NCBI GenBank assembly: GCA_000182565.2
Contig: KQ257457.1
Origin: Spizellomyces punctatus DAOM BR117
Lineage: Eukaryota
Direction: 5' to 3' (one strand)
Length of the DNA stretch: 64,000 bases
Numbering within the stretch: the stretch's first letter is position 1; each line of letters starts with the position of its first letter. Shown in pieces: positions 18,326 through 63,822 of the stretch. The notes beneath the pieces were generated by a model that did not search any database, had not been told where the DNA came from, and worked only from the letters and a program-made list of their open reading frames with translations. Position numbers and translations under genes: made by a program.

Positions 18326-20392
18326 CTAAATCTTGGTCAACGCATCCAAAAATCCCCTAGTTACATCCGCAATAATCGTTCTGTCCGGAACACTTGCTGC
18401 TGTTCCATAGATGGCTGCCACATCGCCGTTACCCGCCTTGGGATCTTTACGAATTTGACCAACCGCTTCACGAAGATCTGCAAGCAAGGCGTCCGCAGAG
18501 TTACGGGTGAGCATGGTGCACGCGATGTGAATTGCTGGTGGGTTTTGGAGAATGTTTAGATGCCAGTGTTTTCTAGACAAGAGGTCGGCCACTGCATAAG
18601 TGCTGATCGGTGCCTTTGCAGCGAAAGCCACGACAGATACGACAGGATCTCCAACCAGCTGGAGACCTTCAATTTCCTGAACCCTATTTGCATGGTGTCA
18701 GCTAAAAGGGTTTCTGAACTCCGTTAAAATATAAAGCGGCGAATACCCTTTTTTGATTTTCCGAGCAGTCTTCATGATTTGCTGGGTGGATTTTATATAT
18801 CCATCTTCGCCAAAGTGAACCAAGGCCGCCCAACATCCAGCAACCAATGACCCAGGCCTAGACCCAGCGATGGTGGGTGATGCATAGATACCGCCTACAT
18901 TCGAGTATTTAGTACATGTGTGAAACGCCGATACTGCCATATTTCACATCACACACCCGGCCATTCCGTCGTCACGAAATATTGATGGTCCCTAATGTCC
19001 TTGGACCGGTACATGATCACGGAAGATCCCTTTGGCGCGAACCCGTACTTGTGCGTGTCGACCGAAATTGAAGTAACGCCATCCACACGGAAATCACATG
19101 GATGCTCCAGAGGATAGCCTGCCTTTTCTAAGAATGGTACGATAAAGCCACCTAGGCAGCAGTCCACATGCATCCCTATCTTGTGCTTCTTCGCCAGAGC
19201 TGCAAGGGCCGGGATGTCGTCTACGATGCCATGAGGGAAATTGGGGGCTGATCCGGCAAGCTAGTCGGGCAAGTTAGTGGATACACCAGAAAAGAACTGG
19301 GAATCTAGTAAGTTGCTCACCATAATGGTGTTCCGGTTAATTGCGCGAGCCACCTTGCTGACGTCCACTTTCCCGGTAATAGGGTCAATGGGAATGTGAA
19401 CAATCTTGACTCCAAAGTAGCTTTCGGCTTTGTCAAAGGCCGCATGGATAGTCACGGGAAGCACCCTGCACGCTAAGTTATAATCGTATTCTACCATTGC
19501 AGGTCTGGAGGGGTACCTACATCTCGGGCTCAGTCACGCCGCGTTTGACCCTTGCCATATCACGGTAGGCTTTGACAGCCATGAGCAAACTTTCTGTTCC
19601 ACCGGACGTTACGCTACCACATCCACTGTCGGGGGCGTTGTACATGCGAAGAACCATAGATACAACCTCAGCCTCCATCCTACGTATCCCCGGAAAGATT
19701 TCGGGGTGTAAAGGCTATATTGAACGTGAAGAATAGGTTTGCGATTGCCTGTTTAGATGTACGGCGAACATTCCGATTGACGTACGTTGGTGACTGTGAA
19801 GCGTGCGAATGCATCGGTGATCAGCGAGGATACTTCCTCACCACCGTGATAGATGGCACCAGAAACTTTTCCTTCCTTCCAATCAACATCGCCCATTTTC
19901 TGATAACTTTGATACAAAAATATTAGAATGTTAATGTAAGCATGCGATACAGATCATTGCCGCTTACCGATCCAGTTCCGCACGAACTTCTGCCGGACTG
20001 AGTCCCTTGGAGGGCAGCGTCCGATAGATCTTCTCACCAGGAGTATACTGGACGACTTTCTTTTCAATGCTCTGTATTTGCTTAGCAACTTCACTTTTAA
20101 CCATATCGTTTGCACCCGGGATGCTCTTTCTCGTCAAAGTAATGAGGATCTAGACACACGCTATTTACATGAGTTTATTTCCGCCTCTTTTGACAGGGAC
20201 CTCACATACCTGCAGGATGTGCTTCACATAGTCTCTAATAGCCTCGCCGGGTCCCTTTACAGCAACTTTGAGAGCTATGGCAGTAGCATAACGGTACACA
20301 AATATGAGGAAGACGACATTTTTGAACAAAGCGATGTAAGGTTTGGAGGTGGCCGTTGCCACCGCGGCATTGAACTTTTGAACAAGCGACAT
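18326..20392 (-). CDS. DPL1: Sphingosine-1-phosphate lyase
   Basis: N-terminal TM segment, [19 protein letters not shown] lysine motif [17 protein letters not shown], and [15 protein letters not shown]. Confidence 0.95.
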
Positions 20393-56479: not shown

Positions 56480-56999
56480 GGCGAGAAATTGGAGGCAGTA
56501 AGTGATTAATCTACCTAATTGATGTCCACTTTATTATTGTTTTTAAAAAAAAAAATACCCCCGACACGCAGCAGCAAAAGCAACACGCTGTGCGCAATCC
56601 CTCAGTGTAAACTTCACGATCGGGCCAAAAAAATGGGCAACGAAACCCTCAATGACGACGACCAAGGGCACGGGTACAAACACCCCGATCCCATCGGACA
56701 TTTAATCTGTAGATACTTGCCCATGTGTTATGAGCAGGTGTTTGCGACTTGATACCACTGGACGAGATGTCAAAAGTTAAAATGTAGACTACAGTTCGTG
56801 GACCCTAATCCACACTTGGAATCTCAAGTTACATAGCGGAACATACACGGATGTGATATCACAACCTTAGTCTTCGACTGCAAAACGGCTCTAGTCTGAT
56901 TGTCCATCACCCCTATTATCTACCAATGTACAACGTTTTCTGTTTGTTCCTGACCGATTCGACTCGTCTCTGATTCAAGAATCAGCAAAGGACGTTCGC

Positions 57000-57021
57000 G
57001 CGAAATCCGGCCGGATTTCGC
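57000..57021. repeat. Perfect 22-bp palindrome
   Basis: GCGAAATCCGGCCGGATTTCGC equals its own reverse complement. Confidence 0.9.
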
Positions 57022-57938
57022 CAACGTGTACCAAACTTTGTCCTGAGTGCAGGCATTCCGGATGACCACGACGACGATTTTAAGCATTTCCTGTCATGTC
57101 AGGTTGAGGTTGGATGGAGCTGCGTTCCCGTAATCATTCTGGAAGGAATAACGAATAGAAACGCAAGAAGGAGATGCTTACTATAAGAACATTAAGGGCG
57201 CTCTTCAGTGCACTGGTGTGTGCGGTCCGTTACACTTGGCTCCCACTCTGGTAGACATCTAGAGTATCCGGGACATAGGTTATTAGCCTACACCAGCAAA
57301 GCGCCCACAAAATATGCAAACTCGGAGGTTCGGAATCGCATATCGTAGCGGAGTTGACCTCAATTGAAAAGTAAATAAAAGCCATTTTGTCGAACGCCTC
57401 AAATAAATTCACACAGTTATCTTAATTTTACATAAACCATCAAGAAATACTACATCTCCTTGCCAATGATATAAACTATCTATAATAAATAACCAACAAA
57501 CTACTAAAACTAATGTGGTTACTCTACTTGAAAATGATTTTTCTATTTAGATACTCCAGCATCCTATTATCCAGGCTAAATCTAGAATTCATCCTCGGAA
57601 TTGAACCCCCAAGTTACCGCATTCAACAATAGTATTTGGTCCAGAGAAATCATGGTCTGGGCATCTCGCCAGTAGACTCTGATGAGCCTGTTTTCGGGCC
57701 GACCGGACGCTCCTAAAAGGGGACCCCCTCGGTCCCATTTCCTCCTTCTTTCCTCTCTCCCCATCCTCTTTCCTACAACACAACCCCTCGTTTCTACAAA
57801 GACTCACTCGAACTTCAAACCTGCTTCAAAATACATTTGCTTATTATCATATATCGGCACCCGATCGTCTCAACGGATTTGCCCCGGGCCACTTTTTCCG
57901 TTTCTGTCGAGTTCCCCACCCGCTAGTGTGTCGCACCG

Positions 57939-59657
57939 ATGGGCATGCGGTCAATACTTTTGCTCATGCTAATGTCGTGGGCCAATGCCTCTTCAACTCC
58001 TCAAGTTTGCACTTTTGCTTCGCTCAGCGATTGCAATTCCTACTCGGGATCCAACTGTACGGGGATTGACCAGTTGCCCTCTGGTATAGGAGGAACATGT
58101 GCAAAGAATGATCCACCACGGCTTTTCTTGTCGAGTGATAAAGTGTGCAGCACATACCCAGAATGCAATGCGACGACACAGGCAACATCCAGTGGAGATC
58201 CGTTGACTATCAATGGCCAAGCATACGTGGTTTCAGCGGGCACTACTCTCACTCAATGTCCCAATGATGGGTGCACGCAAGTGTTGTCGGCAGGAATGTC
58301 TCCGGGGAAAACAAAAGTAGGGGGAAGCATCCAGACCTTGACAGCTACCTCCCTGACTGGGGTATCATATGTTGTGGTGGGGCCTGATGCGTATATTACC
58401 TCTGACAATGGTGCAACATTCTACAAGTCGACTTCCAACCCACCGTCTCTCAGCGGCTTCACAATTGATACAGGCAAAGAAATCATTTCAAGCACCGCTA
58501 CTCAATCCCAAGCTAGCTACAACTACGCTCCTTCAAACGCAGACGACTTTGTCCGGGACCAAAACACTTGCAATTTCGCCATTCGCTTCACTCAGGGAGG
58601 TTTCAGTACGTTCGCTGGGACCACCATATTGGTTTGGAGAGGATCAAATACTCAGTGGTTGGTCTCAAGTAGCGACTGCCCAAGTGCTCTGGCAAATAGC
58701 AATTGGAGCAGCCGCTATGTGCAGACTTTTAGGGTCTTCATCGACTCCAACAATAACGGCATAGCCTACCTGACCGACACGGGCATTCTTTACAAAATGA
58801 CCGGTGGGTCGTGGACTTTGGTCACCGATACGGCCGGCTGTCTGGCCAACGGCAGGACATACTTTAAGATCTCGGGTACCTACAAGGTATACAACTCTGG
58901 GACTTGCCTCTTGGATACCGCTTCCACCCTAACGGGGACTCCCGCATACGACTTCACTTACGGCTCCCTTACCCTTTCGCCACAGCAGCCGACATCAGCA
59001 ATCAGACTTGTCTCCAAAATGGAACGACCTATGGGAAGCTCAGTGGCACTGTGGCGAACCCCCACTCTGAACTTGTTCTCCTCCCCCTCGTGCGCTCCCA
59101 ATCCGACAGTCAATGCCACCACTATTCTCAGCGATTTGATCTCCACTTGTGACACTCTGAATGCAGGCGACTACGCGATCAGCGGGAATGCGATTGTAAA
59201 GTTTGTAAACTCCAGCTTCGCCTGCAGCAGCCCTGACTGCATCGACATTGGGGACTGTCAGACGGATTCGTGTCTTTACCGTGAAGGTCAAATGGCCGGC
59301 AATGTGAGCTGCTCGGCAGGAGGTGGCATCGTGAAGGGTATGATCTACGTCGAAGACCCACCTACCCCTGACCCAACAAGTACCCCTGACCCAACGTCTA
59401 CCGCTAACCCAACAAGTACCGCTAACCCAACTGCCACACCTACTCCTCTAATCACAACAAAACTCAGTGGAGGAAAAATTGCAGCAGCTACCGTAACGCC
59501 AATCGTAGGACTATCGGCAGCTATGGGTGCAATGTTTTATATGAAAGCCGTTAAGGCGAAAGCTGTAAAGACTAATACTAAACAGGAGGGAAAAAGTACT
59601 GAAGAGGAGGGCAAAAATACTGAACGGGTGCCAGAGATCAGTGAAACTCCTGTTTAA
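57939..59657 (+). CDS. Intronless Cys/Ser/Thr-rich type I membrane (cell-surface) protein of unknown function
   Basis: 572-aa uninterrupted ORF with a signal peptide (MRSILLLMLMSWANA), Cys-rich ectodomain, Asp-box-like TSDNGATF, a P/T repeat stalk, a TM helix (IAAATVTPIVGLSAAMGAMFYM) and a short charged tail. Confidence 0.85.
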   Translation: MGMRSILLLMLMSWANASSTPQVCTFASLSDCNSYSGSNCTGIDQLPSGIGGTCAKNDPPRLFLSSDKVCSTYPECNATTQATSSGDPLTINGQAYVVSAGTTLTQCPNDGCTQVLSAGMSPGKTKVGGSIQTLTATSLTGVSYVVVGPDAYITSDNGATFYKSTSNPPSLSGFTIDTGKEIISSTATQSQASYNYAPSNADDFVRDQNTCNFAIRFTQGGFSTFAGTTILVWRGSNTQWLVSSSDCPSALANSNWSSRYVQTFRVFIDSNNNGIAYLTDTGILYKMTGGSWTLVTDTAGCLANGRTYFKISGTYKVYNSGTCLLDTASTLTGTPAYDFTYGSLTLSPQQPTSAIRLVSKMERPMGSSVALWRTPTLNLFSSPSCAPNPTVNATTILSDLISTCDTLNAGDYAISGNAIVKFVNSSFACSSPDCIDIGDCQTDSCLYREGQMAGNVSCSAGGGIVKGMIYVEDPPTPDPTSTPDPTSTANPTSTANPTATPTPLITTKLSGGKIAAATVTPIVGLSAAMGAMFYMKAVKAKAVKTNTKQEGKSTEEEGKNTERVPEISETPV

Positions 59658-59959
59658 AAAGTAATAATATGCGACTTTTTTTGCAATACAGAGTGTCACT
59701 TTGTTAAGCATTGATTCAGAAATGCTTCATTTGCTACATGGCTGGCATTTTAACATTTGCATTGTCGTGGTCGATGCGTCTCTGATAATGAAATGCTGTT
59801 AACCGATAGTCCCGATGAATCATAAAGTCAGATTATCAGGAACAAGCACCTCATTCCTTGTAACATGAACAAATTGGCGATGTTTTCCAACAAAAATAAA
59901 CAGGGAAGTACTTTTTCTGAAAAAAGGAGGATATCCAGGCGCGATGATTCAAAGTGAAC

Positions 59960-61060
59960 GTTTCAAGGAACCCCGGAAGCCTTAAAGAGCGACATAATTT
60001 TAAGCTCATTCCTGCATATCGAGATGAGAAACGTCCCATTTGGAAAGTGGGCAGGTAACAGTTACCATTTTCATACCGACTTCCCAGAAAAGGGAGAACG
60101 CTAGCAGATTATACTCCGAACCTAGGACTTCCTTCCACAGGACGACCTGTTCGTAATCGATGTTGATGCCAAACCGCCAGCGCAAAGATGCATGTCTGGT
60201 CATTACTCTACTTGAACGGGAATTGAGGATTTTGGCACTGCATGATTCCACCTTCCAAAAAGGCTGGCCGGAACGAAATACCAATGGCAAACTGACTTGC
60301 ATGTCCACGATATTGCAAATCTGCCAGAATGGATTCTAGACAATATTTTGGCAACAATGGCAAAAGACAAGCAACATTTTCTTGAATCAAGTGGATGGCT
60401 TTCACCGCCGACCCTGCTAAACAACCACGAAATTGAAAACAAAGTGGTCGCTCTGTTGAAAAAAAAAAGTGAATGGTGGCAAGACTGCTTTAGCCTGTCC
60501 AAACCAGATGAGAACAATATCGTTTGTATTGCGGCAACAGCGCCGTATAATGCAAGTTGTGTGTGGCGGACGACATGTTAAGAACAGTAATCATCCATTT
60601 TTTAGTCAACAACGGCGGCATTCTGAAATTCATCTGTCGTTCTGGCAGAGATTCTGAGGGAAACCCGTTTCTCCGGCATATTTCCACTCATGTCTTTTCT
60701 GATGAAATCCAGAATAATTGGCTAATTGCGTGTGGAAGTGAAAAGGGTGCGAGCGATTATTTCCAATGGTTTGTATCCTGACTATGTGAAATACGATTTG
60801 ATGTTGGTTACGATGAAAACAACTTGGCGTGTTGAAACAAAGGTAGAGGAGACCGCCTGCGGGAATTACGTTTTGCAACATCCTGCGGAAACATATTGCA
60901 GTCAATCGCAAAGCAATTGAAGCATGCCTTGAGTCCTCTTTAAAAGAATATGTCTTTGAGACTTTCACAATTTGGGAATACCAAAACATAAGATAGGAAT
61001 AACTTGTCAAGATCGACATGTATCCTTACTTTTATGATTCGCTTGGCAGCTCAACCGATT
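59960..61060 (+). pseudogene. Decayed Prim-Pol (bifunctional primase-polymerase) / zinc-ribbon / D5_N-like primase-helicase remnant
   Basis: Ordered motifs across stops and frameshifts: DDLFVIDVDAK (60141), MIPPS (60242), GTKYQW (60270), IANLPEWILD, then C-K-L-C...RH...HPF-LV...LKFICRS (about 60551-60642). Confidence 0.6.
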
Positions 61061-61354
61061 TATACCTCGAGAGACTAACTACTTCACAACGCGTAGGAAC
61101 AGAACATGGAGCTGCATTCAAGTACAACCTACATAGTGTGGAGGCGATTGAAAAGGGCACTAGGACCCATTATTATCCGGATTAATCCGGTTAATCATAT
61201 CGCATAATCAGAACCCCCCTCTATCGCTCAGATTGGTGTGGCATGTATTGTAATGTTTTTTTTTAAACTGCGGTGAGGCGCATGCCAAAGGTCTATAAAA
61301 GGGGAGCCTTTTCCCTCTTTCCTCTTTACCCATCCTCGACTCGAAGCATCTGCG

Positions 61355-61438
61355 CAACGCTCATTGCGACCCACATTGCAACCTCATAGCGACCCACATT
61401 GCAACCTCATAGCGACCCACACAACCTCATCGCGACTC
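61355..61438. repeat. Tandem repeat, about 4 copies of a 23-bp unit
   Basis: Unit CAACCTCATAGCGACCCACATTG with variants. Confidence 0.85.
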
Positions 61439-61446
61439 GGTCAACC

Positions 61447-61797
61447 ATGAGAACGCCGATGTGGTGGTGTCGAGGACCTCGACCGCCCGACAGCAACCGT
61501 GATCAGAACCAGCGGCAACCAATCGGATCCGATAACAAAACCTACTATTATACTGCCACATTAGTTGAGCTTGGTTGGTATGTATCGATGGCATTTCTTG
61601 GATTTCTTGTCATCGGGTCACCTCGCTGACATGCAGTTTTTTTTAGTCTCCAAGCCTTGTCACTGAAAATCCACCAGCTTGTGACGCTGCCCAGTCGATT
61701 CGCTCCTGGTTGCAAGAGTCTGGCTTCAATGCCATCAAGAGTTCTGGATCAAGGCCTAGTAGGGACCGCGTGTGGTGGTGGGCAGTTATCCGGTTAG
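61447..61797 (+). CDS. Possible small spliced orphan ORF (93 aa) or gene remnant
   Basis: TATAAAA at 61294, ATG at 61447, canonical intron GTATGT...GCTGAC...TAG (61578-61646) and an in-frame stop at 61795-61797. No recognisable homology. Confidence 0.3.
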
Positions 61798-63749
61798 AAC
61801 AACCGTTACGTATTGCGTGTATAATTGCCTAGTAGTAGTTAGTTAGGTTTTCCGAACCGGTTGTCGCGCGGTTTATTCCCTGGTGTAGTAGCTAGTGCCA
61901 GTTTCTGTCACCTCTACACTAAGAAAACTATACCAAGAGCTAGTTTCAATTTCATCACCCAATATGCAGATGGCGGGCGAGAGTTGAATAAAAGAATTCA
62001 AGACATGTGGGTACAAATACCCCATCAATCGTTAACTTTCAATAGCAGTAACGTCAGTTCTGAGTGACTACATTACATTGACTTTCAAAGCAGTATGTTC
62101 CCTTTCTAATCTAAAATCCATCCTGGTCGTATTGAACGTCGTTCGCACCCTAATCAGTTGCATCAGCAACCCACAACTTTTCGTTGTCAAACCTCGCATG
62201 TCTAGAATCATGTCTAGAATGACTCTAGTACCAGAATCTCCCCCTCAGTGTTGCCTATGCGACCCTGACGACGAGGGAGCGCCAATATTTGTCTGTCCAT
62301 CCGGCCCCTTCCAACTAGGTAAATATTGCTTTGAGAAATTCAGGTTCAAAAAGCAAGTGCTCGATATTCTACCGGGCTAAAATGAGAAAAAATCTGTAGA
62401 ACAATTGGACTAGAGTATCCTCGACATGTAACCACTTGCGAACAGGTTTCAAAGCCATCGAGTCCAGCCTTACTGAATGGCAGCCTTGAATCCGATCCCC
62501 GGGCAAACATAAAAAAACAGCCTTACTGAGCATACAGGATTCAAAGTTTGTGGTATTCGCGATTAGAAAGGAGATGAGGATACCCATCAACTACATAAAA
62601 GATGGTGGAATACATCAAAATCATTTTGACGAGGAAAACTGGTCATGGCCTCTTTGACCTCTTCGATGTTCTAGAAGTACGTAGTGTGAGATTGTGGACC
62701 ATGTTTGGCACTCTTCAGGACACTCTCATTAGTCTGGACTGGGTTGTCGAAGGTGATGACGCCAAGTGGTCATGTTGTGCCATATTGATGGCATTCATAT
62801 TGGAAAGACCAGCACATGCAACAAGCCATAATTGTCAGATATAATAATAAATTCGGGAAATCCTCTTGGAGAACCCGATCTAGGTAAATAATTTCGCTAG
62901 TTGAATTTGTTTTGGGAGGAAATCTCACAGACTATATTATCAAAGGCAGATATCCTTCTTTCGATGCTGCTATCAAGCTCATAGTCTGGATGCCCTCTAT
63001 GTGCAGGATTTACTAGATATCCTAGTCGCTTCTTGCTGTAGACGCCGATGAACAGGCACCAACCGAACCATAACCCAAAATCCCCTTCCATCTGTTGACG
63101 TCGGTATATTGGGCACCACAAAACTAGCCATTATTTCCCTATGGATTTTGCATATTCTACTGAACTGAACAAATGGACAAATCACAAATTAATTAAAAAA
63201 GGTCCACACATTTCGTCGATATAAAGCCTCCTTTACGCCTAGATGCCATTGTGTCGCACCTTGCCGTCCTCAATGTGGATCAAGAGATGCTTCCGTCGTC
63301 TATCATCAGTGATGACCACAGAACCTTTATTGCTCCTGATATGATGGAACGAGTATACATGAAAGTAACTGGATTTTCCCAAAAAGATCCCGCCAAGCTA
63401 CTAGTAATAGGTGGGGGGATGGCCCTTGTAAATATGACGAAACCTGTTTCTGTTCCAGCCGTCCTTTGATGCCTAGCATTCGCCATCCTGCCAATCGCTC
63501 TTTATTTCTCGCTATCTTTTACTCCCTTAATCCATAGACTATATTTACTTGATTGCAAAGTACAACCTTGGGAGAAAGGGTACAGAGCGCCCGATACTGC
63601 AGCCATTTGCGGATACTCGTGATGGACAGTGTGGAGGTATAGGACGACGCTGTGGGTTGACAAGAATATTGGGCGATTGCAAAAAATCGCAGGGAGACTA
63701 TAGATGATATTCATCCTCGTAAAACTCTGAGGCTCTGTCACTGTAACGA

Positions 63750-63822
63750 GGGCCTATGGCCCAATGGATAAGGCGCCTGACTACGGATCAGGAGATTCCA
63801 GGTTCGAATCCTGGTAGGCTCG
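63750..63822 (+). tRNA. tRNA-Arg (ACG)
   Basis: 73 nt. Acceptor stem GGGCCTA/TAGGCTC, D-arm TGGCCCAATGGATAAGGC, anticodon arm CCTGA-CTACGGA-TCAGG, and T-loop GGTTCGAATCC. Confidence 0.97.

What the first reader, a model, noticed from the sequence alone, without database searches (positions are those of the whole stretch)
59960..61060. Fossil of a virus/plasmid-type Prim-Pol primase-helicase gene, hidden by frameshifts
Seen in sequence: reading through stops gives IILRT*...DDLFVIDVDAK at 60141-60173. MIPPS at 60242-60256 joins GTKYQW by one extra base in an A-run (60257-60260), and IANLPEWILD follows. About 90 codons on, small indels restore APY-CKLC-GGRHVKNSNHPF-LVNNGGILKFICRS. Fragments ASDYF..LYPDYVKYD and YFYDSLGS come after that. 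Established knowledge: hhhDhD...PPS...GxxYxW...hAxLPxWL is the motif order of bifunctional Prim-Pol (AEP-superfamily) domains. Fusions of these with a Zn-binding module, D5_N and an SF3 helicase are replication proteins of Polinton-like viruses, virophages, giant viruses, phages and plasmids, not of fungal core genomes. Inference: this is an endogenised, decayed replication gene, internally deleted (I could not find the catalytic His motif) and truncated before the helicase P-loop.
Basis: partly seen in the sequence, partly recalled or inferred. Interest (0 to 1): 0.78.

Follow-up and report, generated by a model that had tools for sequence, protein, structure and literature searches.

The report
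Dead viral-type primase gene in chytrid
This is the broken, silent remnant of a DNA-replication gene (primase-helicase) of the kind carried by small DNA viruses and plasmids, left behind in the genome of a chytrid-like fungus; such relics are already known from these fungi, so it is real but fairly ordinary.

Summary
A one-frame read-through of 59958-60581 finds nine true relatives among 1.84 billion proteins (best E 2.7e-25, 43% identity). All nine carry Pfam Prim-Pol, and several also carry D5_N and the DUF5906 helicase. Every named relative comes from a chytrid fungus; intact copies are 800-850 aa.

The window copy starts at a retained ATG (59944). It needs eight changes of frame and one stop read-through to reach 60706. 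It has lost about 62 codons holding catalytic motifs II and III, and fades out near 61004. No D5_N core or helicase is found anywhere in the window. In the runs laid it is single-copy DNA with almost no RNA.

A host gene ends 290 bp upstream, and a high-copy repeat starts about 130 bp downstream. The source element could not be determined; a Polinton-like virus is the most likely guess.

Verdict: observation confirmed and interpretation supported. It is a new member of a known kind, of modest interest.

The parts
59944..59979 (+). Retained start codon and first 12 codons (MIQSERFKEPRK), frame mod3=1
   Evidence: In the frameshift-aware alignment it aligns with residues 1-12 of P0009 and P0011 (MTQTQLFKLAKQ); translation.
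59981..60239 (+). N-terminal half of the Prim-Pol domain, read in frames 2/0/2/0. It holds catalytic motif I (DDLFVIDVDAK, 60141-60173) and one stop on the best path (TGA 60213-60215).
   Evidence: Family profile hit 60030-60239, E 1.3e-14, profile positions 30-97. tblastn P0009/P0011 32-97 to 60036-60239, E 4e-09 / 2e-11. Frame changes near 59980, 60041, 60103-60109 and 60131.
60239..60242 (+). Deletion junction. About 62 codons are missing (P0003 residues 97-158), covering motif II (TPSGGKHxYF) and motif III (AVDxRxKGGY). The junction also shifts the frame.
   Evidence: Gap of P0001 in alignment A1. Profile positions 98-166 have no counterpart. tblastn finds no HSP for these residues except chance 13-residue matches elsewhere.
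60242..60268 (+). MIPPSKKAG, frame mod3=2, the counterpart of the family's MCPPSxKG
   Evidence: frame-2 segment ending 60265-60268; family consensus.
60270..60551 (+). C-terminal end of the Prim-Pol domain and the following helical region (GTKYQW..DIANLPEWILDNIL..KSEWWQDCF..APYN), frame mod3=0, open for 111 codons
   Evidence: Family profile E 3.2e-24. tblastn P0003 161-266, 42% identity. Pfam PF09250 positions 134-158, E 0.098.
60551..60706 (+). Cys/His (zinc-type) region in three frames: CKLC (60551-60562), GGRHVKNSNHPF (60565-60597), LVNNGGILKFICRSGRDSEG.. (60599-60706)
   Evidence: tblastn P0003 261-311 to 60551-60706 and P0004/P0006/P0008 pieces at 60559-60603 and 60599-60649. Path segments 10/12 and 20/36 identical to P0003.
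60725..61004 (+). Weakly recognisable tail (linker between the zinc region and D5_N) with three more frame changes (about 60770, 60861, 60959).
   Evidence: Frameshift-aware score against P0007 residues 311-407 is 102, against 43.5 +/- 7.2 in 100 shuffles (0/100 reach it). P0004 0/100, P0025 1/100, P0022 3/100, P0034 5/100, P0027 10/100. In the 30-shuffle run, P0006, P0014, P0003 and P0005 did not exceed their shuffles. Not found by the profile search.

Best explanation
Positions 59944 to about 61004 (+) are a dead relic of the first ~410 codons of an ~800-850-codon primase-helicase gene. The architecture is a pRN1-type Prim-Pol (AEP) domain, a Cys/His zinc region, D5_N and an SF3 (P4/D5-type) helicase.

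The intact protein would prime and unwind the DNA of a selfish element. This is inferred from the family assignments and was not tested.

The gene entered the genome of a chytrid-like fungus with an integrating virus-like element, most likely a Polinton-like virus (inferred, about 50%). It then decayed neutrally. It lost catalytic motifs II and III in a ~186-bp deletion, acquired eight frame changes and a stop, and lost everything from the D5_N core onward.

Today it is single-copy, untranscribed filler between a host surface-protein gene and a high-copy repeat, and it does nothing.
For: - Homology (shown): phmmer E 2.7e-25, with 9 of 10 hits belonging to one family; family profile E 3.2e-24 and 1.3e-14.
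- Family identity (shown): PF09250 at E down to 2.4e-21, plus D5_N and DUF5906; TIGR01613 'phage/plasmid primase, P4 family' E 1.4e-32, above its cut-off.
- Helicase half: a family profile matches ASFV C962R at 1.5e-33 and poxvirus D5/E5 at about 1e-15.
- N-terminal fold: the model (pLDDT 89.6) is closest to pRN1 ORF904 (E 1.5e-07, prob 1.00) and NrS-1.
- Decay (shown): the frame path, stop and deletion. The terminal branch is 2.48 against a median of 0.33; this is partly inflated by out-of-frame stretches in the one-frame query.
- The breaks are not listed as differences in independent short DNA reads (X17, about 2-8x), and no indel row falls within 59815-61102 among the rows shown.
- Silent: RNA depth is 0-0.3 over 59815-61102 apart from 2.0 next to an A-run, while the 3' end of the upstream gene reaches 147x.
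- Mobile origin: all 13 species-named proteins among 22 close family members come from Chytridiomycetes. Five species were looked up and span four orders. At least five distinct clusters occur in one species, and the tree is not host-like.
- Literature: an integrated Polinton-like virus is reported in Spizellomyces punctatus (PMC7805220, passages read). A 2026 preprint reports A32 ATPases of presumed viral regions in many chytrid genomes (10.64898/2026.06.19.733378, passages read).
Against: - The window peptide itself fails Pfam's Prim-Pol threshold (13.5 bits against 22.8), so membership rests on transitive homology.
- No capsid, packaging ATPase, integrase, terminal inverted repeat or target-site duplication was found beside the fossil.
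- No relative was found in IMG/VR in 6 scans, in JGI metagenome contigs in 2 scans, or in phage records. The viral nature of the carrier is therefore unproven.
- The helicase half resembles giant-virus D5/C962R, which fits a different source.
- The RNA run was read only to about 6% and looks 3'-biased, so 'silent' rests on thin data.
- The read depth supporting the breaks is low.
Confidence: 0.88

Rival explanations
1. The fossil comes from an inserted giant virus (Nucleocytoviricota, e.g. Mycodnaviridae of zoosporic fungi), being a D5-like primase-helicase core gene, and not from a small Polinton-like element.
For: The family's D5_N-helicase half matches ASFV C962R (E 1.5e-33) and poxvirus D5/E5 (about 1e-15) best among solved structures. 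Giant-virus contigs with a D5-like helicase-primase are reported in zoosporic fungi (PMC13533422, passages read). NCLDV D5 genes were reported in lower fungi (PMC5294986, passages read).
Against: The N-terminal domain is the pRN1/NrS-1 Prim-Pol type by Pfam and by fold, while monkeypox E5 primase chains score only prob 0.11-0.14. TIGR01613 P4-family matches. The nearest Atlas clusters are labelled viruses, mostly Uroviricota. Unnamed full-length relatives sit on contigs of only 18.8-24.9 kb. No other giant-virus gene lies in 56600-63750.
Confidence: 0.15
2. The gene family belongs to a capsid-less element, such as a plasmid-like or self-replicating transposon of chytrids, not to a virus.
For: No capsid or packaging gene was seen here. 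The family was absent from the viral contig collection in 6 scans. Prim-Pol + D5_N + SF3 is also a plasmid architecture (pRN1, P4).
Against: The context of intact copies could not be read at all, so absence of capsid genes is untested where it matters. Pfam covers PLV capsids poorly. PLVs are already documented in chytrids (PMC7805220; 10.64898/2026.06.19.733378).
Confidence: 0.2
3. It is a working host gene whose pieces are joined by splicing or programmed frameshifting, or the breaks are assembly errors.
For: Three frame changes lie at or next to homopolymer runs (60257-61, 60595-60600; the A-run 60463-72 is in frame). A start codon is kept.
Against: There are eight frame changes with no sequence between the pieces, a stop, and loss of about 62 codons with two of the three catalytic motifs. 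RNA depth is about 0. Short DNA reads of another study list no differences there among the rows shown. The branch is very long.
Confidence: 0.02
4. It is a chance resemblance of intergenic DNA to Prim-Pol motifs.
For: Pfam on the window peptide is sub-threshold (E 0.098).
Against: E 2.7e-25 against 1.84 billion proteins, with collinear matches over about 250 residues in the right order.
Confidence: 0.01

Closest known systems
Chytrid-genome primase-helicase family (e.g. TPX54301.1 Powellomyces hirtus, KAJ3030393.1 Rhizophlyctis rosea, 'bifunctional DNA primase/polymerase' of Phlyctochytrium arcticum; unnamed 800-850 aa proteins on 19-25 kb contigs)
   Same: Collinear homology over the first ~410 residues at 35-47% identity. 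Same motif I, the same GxxYxW..LPxWI end and the same Cys/His region.
   Different: The window copy is broken: eight frame changes, one stop and a ~62-codon deletion of motifs II and III. It lacks the D5_N core and the helicase.
pRN1 ORF904 primase-polymerase (PDB 3m1m, 1rni) and phage NrS-1 primase-polymerase (6a9w): Pfam Prim-Pol PF09250
   Same: The fold of the family's N-terminal domain matches (Foldseek E 1.5e-07 and about 1e-03, prob 0.97-1.00 across the listed chains). Pfam PF09250 matches relatives at 1e-18 to 1e-21.
   Different: Sequence identity is only 13-19%. No sequence-level PDB match exists for the N-terminal domain. The window copy fails the Pfam cut-off and lacks motifs II and III.
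ASFV C962R and poxvirus D5/E5 primase-helicases (PDB 8wvz, 8apl, 8xj8)
   Same: The D5_N + SF3 helicase half of the intact family matches these (E 1.5e-33 and about 1e-15).
   Different: That half is absent from the window. The N-terminal primase domain of the family looks like pRN1, not like the poxvirus primase.
AEP-SF3 primase-helicase replication modules of Polinton-like viruses and virophages, including the integrated PLV of Spizellomyces punctatus (PMC7805220; 10.64898/2026.06.19.733378)
   Same: Same domain architecture, same host group and the same integrated state.
   Different: No sequence from those elements was available to compare. No capsid, ATPase, integrase or terminal repeats lie beside this fossil.

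Membership tests
Prim-Pol (Pfam PF09250, AEP superfamily) | Profile match of the sequence itself above Pfam's gathering score | tested here: not met
   P0001: E 0.098, 13.5 bits against cut-off 22.8; only profile positions 134-158 matched.
Prim-Pol (Pfam PF09250, AEP superfamily) | Homology by descent to proteins that pass the Pfam threshold | tested here: met
   All nine relatives (E 2.7e-25 to 1.3e-06) score above the PF09250 gathering score: 22.9 to 77.3 bits against 22.8. Family profile against the window: 3.2e-24 and 1.3e-14.
Prim-Pol (Pfam PF09250, AEP superfamily) | Catalytic motif I (hhhDhD) | tested here: met
   FVIDVDAK within 60141-60173 aligns with the family's VIDVDNK.
Prim-Pol (Pfam PF09250, AEP superfamily) | Catalytic motif II (sxGGxH) and motif III (hDhR..GGY) | tested here: not met
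   Both lie in the ~62 codons with no counterpart between 60239 and 60242. The copy therefore cannot be catalytically active.
Prim-Pol (Pfam PF09250, AEP superfamily) | AEP Prim-Pol fold | tested here: met
   Tested on a relative only (P0013, pLDDT 89.6). Best matches are pRN1 ORF904 and NrS-1. The window copy was not folded.
D5_N + SF3 helicase (PF08706, PF19263, TIGR01613) | D5_N domain and Walker A/B helicase core downstream of the primase | tested here: not met
   Present in intact relatives. No match anywhere in the window by tblastn, by family profile, by Pfam on six frames of 56600-63750, or by frameshift-aware scoring of 61922-63749 on both strands.
Polinton-like virus / virophage-type integrated element | Double jelly-roll capsid genes, A32-type ATPase, integrase, and terminal inverted repeats with target-site duplication | tested here: not met
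   No Pfam hit at E <= 0.1 in six frames of 56600-63750 except a sub-threshold CDC24_OB3. No repeats of 40 nt or more in the window and no flanking inverted repeat. Pfam's sensitivity for PLV capsids is low. A host gene ends 290 bp upstream.
Polinton-like virus / virophage-type integrated element | Intact family members lie inside elements with those genes | not testable with these tools
Six viral-contig scans and two metagenome-contig scans returned no locus. No eukaryotic genome collection is held.

The most novel reading that the evidence does not exclude
The fossil marks a chytrid-specific lineage of small (about 19-25 kb) integrating dsDNA viruses. They would replicate with a pRN1-type Prim-Pol fused to a C962R/D5-like helicase. 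The lineage is still intact and multi-copy in other chytrids (Phlyctochytrium, Rhizophlyctis, Gaertneriomyces, Borealophlyctis). It has not been described as such, and may be virophage-like parasites of the recently found giant viruses of zoosporic fungi.
Probability: 0.3. Interest if true: 0.6.

Novelty: new member of a known kind. Interest (0 to 1): 0.3.

Why it matters
On its own, the fossil is one more endogenous relic of a selfish DNA element. It adds a dated footprint of past invasion to a fungal lineage where DNA viruses were long thought absent and have only recently been documented.

Its practical value is as a pointer. It led to a coherent family of intact 800-850-residue primase-helicases, restricted so far to chytrid genomes and a few unnamed 19-25 kb contigs. 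The carrier elements of these genes could be defined with an ordinary genome survey. That survey would show whether chytrids host their own Polinton-like viruses or virophage-like elements alongside their giant viruses.

Tried and rejected
- Pfam and PHROGs on the single pieces (P0002, 60726-60920, 61003-61185, 60847-60996, 60460-60657): Pfam gave nothing on any piece; PHROGs gave one weak row (phrog_29092, E 0.31, on 61003-61185), taken as noise.
- tblastn of P0001 against 50,697 phage records: no match.
- The search for related loci: viral contigs with P0001, alignment A2, P0007, P0022, P0006 and P0017 (6 scans), and metagenome contigs with A2 and P0022 (2 scans). None returned a relative. 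The neighbourhoods of intact copies therefore stay unread.
- Sequencing runs: no RNA holder was listed by the index. The RNA statement rests only on laying run X16.
- A 13-residue match of P0010/P0009 to 18392-18430 ([10 protein letters not shown]) has no flanking similarity and was rejected as chance.
- Sequence search of the PDB with an N-terminal profile (A3) gave only two spurious rows.
- Repeat searches found no terminal or flanking repeats around the fossil.
- YFYDSLGS (61024-61047) lies on no homology path.
- A first frameshift-aware alignment with linear gap costs mis-aligned the N-terminal part across the deletion. It was redone piecewise.
- Beyond the repeat (61922-63749, both strands) scores equal those of shuffles.
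- Supplementary tables of PMC7805220 and PMC11296320, which may list the replication gene of the Spizellomyces PLV and the chytrid helicase hits, were not seen.

Full report
**Observation**

- DDLFVIDVDAK lies at 60141-60173, after two in-frame TAG codons.
- MIPPS lies at 60242-60256 in another frame.
- GTKYQW...DIANLPEWILDNIL follows from 60270.
- APYN, CKLC, GGRHVKNSNHPF and LVNNGGILKFICRSG lie in three frames between 60540 and 60650.
- GASDYFQWF, LYPDYVKYD and YFYDSLGS lie further on.

The A-run where one frame change was placed is 60257-60261. The window has no N, and its composition here (43% G+C) is unremarkable.

**Is it more than chance?**

Pfam on a one-frame read-through of 59958-60581 (P0001, stops as X) gave only a sub-threshold Prim-Pol match. 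It scored E 0.098 and 13.5 bits against a cut-off of 22.8, at the GTKYQW..LPEWIL piece, matching the last 25 profile positions. PHROGs gave nothing useful.

The exhaustive phmmer search of P0001 against 1,835,955,588 representative proteins settled the question. It returned 10 proteins at E <= 0.001 and 7 at <= 1e-10, the best at E 2.7e-25 and 43% identity. Nine of the ten are one family. All nine match PF09250 above its gathering score. Seven score E 6.1e-06 to 2.4e-21, and the two fragments P0010 and P0011 score 6.1e-05 and 1.3e-04. Four also match D5_N (PF08706) and three match DUF5906, the P4/D5-type helicase. The tenth, P0012, is an unrelated DUF7151 repeat protein.

A profile of 19 full-length relatives (A2) run over the six-frame translation of the whole window hits only this locus. 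The hits are 60270-60560 (E 3.2e-24), 60030-60239 (E 1.3e-14) and three small pieces at 59987-60091, 60548-60652 and 60559-60612.

**Who are the relatives?**

Seven of the nine relatives carry names, and all seven are from chytrid fungi: Powellomyces hirtus, Rhizophlyctis rosea, Phlyctochytrium arcticum and Borealophlyctis nickersoniae. Two are unnamed proteins of 829 and 802 residues on contigs of 24.9 and 21.2 kb.

A word-indexed search with the 829-residue protein found 27 proteins.
- Twenty-two are close (E <= 2e-95).
- Thirteen of those 22 carry species names, all Chytridiomycetes. New names were Nowakowskiella sp., Gaertneriomyces semiglobifer and Geranomyces variabilis.
- Nine of the 22 are unnamed. 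One of these is labelled by its source as a P4-family phage/plasmid primase-like protein.
- Five further hits are distant (E 1.4e-26 to 8.5e-15) and unnamed.

Five species were looked up and fall in four orders: Spizellomycetales, Chytridiales, Rhizophlyctidales and Cladochytriales. The orders of the other named species are recalled, not looked up. Intact copies are 778-849 residues. Phlyctochytrium arcticum alone has at least five distinct 90% clusters.

In a tree of the first 330 residues, copies from one species fall in separate clades. The tree had 28 rows. I left out P0010, P0011, P0015, P0016, P0032, P0035 and P0037-P0039 as fragments or as lacking the N-terminus. The window copy sits unresolved inside the family on a branch of 2.48, against a median of 0.33. 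Part of that length is an artefact of out-of-frame stretches in the one-frame query.

**What the family is**

- The intact proteins match NCBIfam TIGR01613 'phage/plasmid primase, P4 family' (E 1.4e-32, 112.8 bits against cut-off 108.7).
- The family profile matches the D5_N-helicase half of ASFV C962R (E 1.5e-33) and poxvirus D5/E5 (about 1e-15) among solved structures.
- The N-terminal domain has no sequence-level match in the PDB.
- An AlphaFold model of a 309-residue relative (pLDDT 89.6, pTM 0.84) is closest to the primase-polymerase of archaeal plasmid pRN1 (3m1m E 1.5e-07; 1ro0, 1rni), then to phage NrS-1 primase-polymerase. Monkeypox E5 primase chains reach only probability 0.11-0.14.
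- The nearest ESM-Atlas clusters share the Prim-Pol + D5_N + DUF5906 architecture. They are 55-96% 'Viruses' among members with a record; this is a lead only.

**Anatomy of the window copy**

tblastn of nine relatives, alignment A1 and my frameshift-aware alignments agree on the following path.

| Window positions | Frame (mod 3) | Content |
|---|---|---|
| 59944-59979 | 1 | ATG, MIQSERFKEPRK, aligning with residues 1-12 of relatives |
| 59981-60040 | 2 | N-terminal Prim-Pol |
| 60042-60103 | 0 | N-terminal Prim-Pol |
| about 60104-60130 | 2 | YTPNLGL |
| 60132-60239 | 0 | Motif I; one stop, TGA 60213 |
| 60242-60268 | 2 | MIPPSKKAG |
| 60270-60551/60557 | 0 | End of Prim-Pol and helical region |
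| 60559-60597 | 1 | Part of the Cys/His region |
| 60599-60706 | 2 | Rest of the Cys/His region |

- Deletion: residues 97-158 of the closest relative have no counterpart. These hold motif II (TPSGGKHxYF) and motif III (AVDxRxKGGY). Profile positions 98-166 are skipped between 60239 and 60270. The missing piece is not elsewhere in the window. The only candidate, at 18392-18430, is a 13-residue chance match.
- Tail: beyond 60706 the profile finds nothing. A frameshift-aware score of 60707-61135 against the linker region of relatives exceeds all 100 shuffles for P0007 (102 against 43.5 +/- 7.2) and for P0004. It is marginal for P0025, P0022, P0034 and P0027 (1, 3, 5 and 10 of 100). In the 30-shuffle run it did not exceed the shuffles for P0006, P0014, P0003 or P0005. 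The best path runs 60725-61004 with three more frame changes and includes ASDYF..LYPDYVK. YFYDSLGS is on no path.
- Missing domains: nothing matches D5_N or the helicase anywhere, including 61922-63749 on both strands.

**Surroundings**

The window is ordinary eukaryotic nuclear DNA. It holds a mitochondrial-type RNA polymerase, catalase, a kinase with WW domains, a Lon-domain protein, lipase, and RING and FHA proteins.

The 570-codon ORF ending at 59657 is a host gene. It has 68-69% identical full-length orthologues in two Gaertneriomyces species. Its 3' end is transcribed.

From about 61138 to about 61921 lies a high-copy repeat (see the notes in passing). A tRNA-Arg(ACG) lies at 63750-63822.

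Six-frame Pfam of 56600-63750 found no other domain. No terminal or flanking repeats surround the fossil.

**Reads**

laid four coded runs on 57400-62200.
- Short DNA reads of another study (X17) cover the fossil at about 1.3-4.2 per direction. The upstream gene is covered at 3-12 and the repeat at 500-890. The fossil is therefore single-copy at 92% likeness or more. No substitution or indel row falls within it among the rows shown; 38 and 3 rows were not shown.
- RNA reads (X16) give depth 0-0.3 over 59815-61102. The exception is 2.0 in the bin with the A-run 60463-72, where 18 molecules end at 60476, which looks like internal priming. The neighbouring gene's 3' end reaches 147x. Only about 6% of the run was read, and coverage looks 3'-biased because the upstream gene is covered only over 59332-59814.
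- This is thin but consistent evidence that the fossil is not expressed.

**Interpretation**

The fossil is a pseudogene by every test made. Two of three catalytic motifs are gone, eight frame changes and a stop are present, half the gene is missing, no RNA is seen, and the branch is long. It descends from a family whose distribution (patchy, multi-copy, not host-like) and architecture are those of replication proteins of selfish DNA elements.

Which element carried it is not shown. The literature documents several relevant cases.
- An integrated Polinton-like virus in Spizellomyces punctatus (PMC7805220, passages read).
- A32 ATPases of presumed viral regions in many chytrid genomes, and AEP-SF3 modules in many PLV groups (10.64898/2026.06.19.733378, passages read).
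- Distant helicase hits of PLVs in chytrid fungi (PMC11296320, passage read).
- Giant viruses with D5-like helicase-primase in zoosporic fungi (PMC13533422, passages read).
- NCLDV genes in lower fungi (PMC5294986, passages read).

I put a PLV-like virus at about 0.5, a capsid-less plasmid or transposon-like element at about 0.2, and a giant virus at about 0.15.

Searches for prior description of this particular family were. None of the listed papers was seen to describe it. Supplementary tables were closed and could hold it.

**Verdict**

The kind of thing, a viral-type replication gene endogenised and decayed in a chytrid genome, is already known. This is a new member of that kind, of modest interest. 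Its main value is the pointer to an intact chytrid primase-helicase family whose carrier elements remain to be read.

Noticed in passing
window 61138-61921: High-copy repeat directly downstream of the fossil. DNA depth in run X17 is 500-890 per direction against 3-12 for single-copy flanks, roughly 100 copies or more. It is very strongly transcribed on the + strand (up to about 25,000x). A 69-nt GT..AG intron is spliced out (61578-61646; 919 reads). There is a TATAAAAG box near 61295 and a 23-nt tandem array at 61354-61436. The sequence starts TG and ends CA, like a solo LTR, but I saw no matching target-site duplication. It has no Pfam or Rfam match. It may have truncated or displaced the 3' part of the fossil.
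   Followed up: partly
window 63750-63822: tRNA-Arg (anticodon ACG), + strand, 2.7 kb downstream of the fossil. It is the only RNA gene found in the window. No link to the fossil was shown.
   Followed up: no
window 59059-59063: A C-run of five inside the host 570-codon ORF. One C fewer is seen in the only X5 contig there (depth 18.2 of 18.2) and in 4 of 9 X17 reads. That would shift the frame of a gene that is open in the window and has full-length orthologues, so it is either an allele or a homopolymer error in those runs.
   Followed up: partly
window 57927-59657: The host gene is a Cys-rich, secreted-looking protein with a Thr/Pro-rich 18-nt tandem repeat (59362-59431) and a C-terminal hydrophobic stretch. 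It has no Pfam family, and homologues were found only in Gaertneriomyces (68-69% identity).
   Followed up: partly
relatives P0003 / P0005 (Powellomyces hirtus, two assemblies): The gene model P0005 lacks part of the motif II-III region (..TPSGEGYVMCPPS..) that P0003 keeps. It continues into a DUF5906 helicase without a D5_N match, whereas P0003 ends in unrelated sequence. These closest relatives may themselves be damaged or mis-modelled copies.
   Followed up: no
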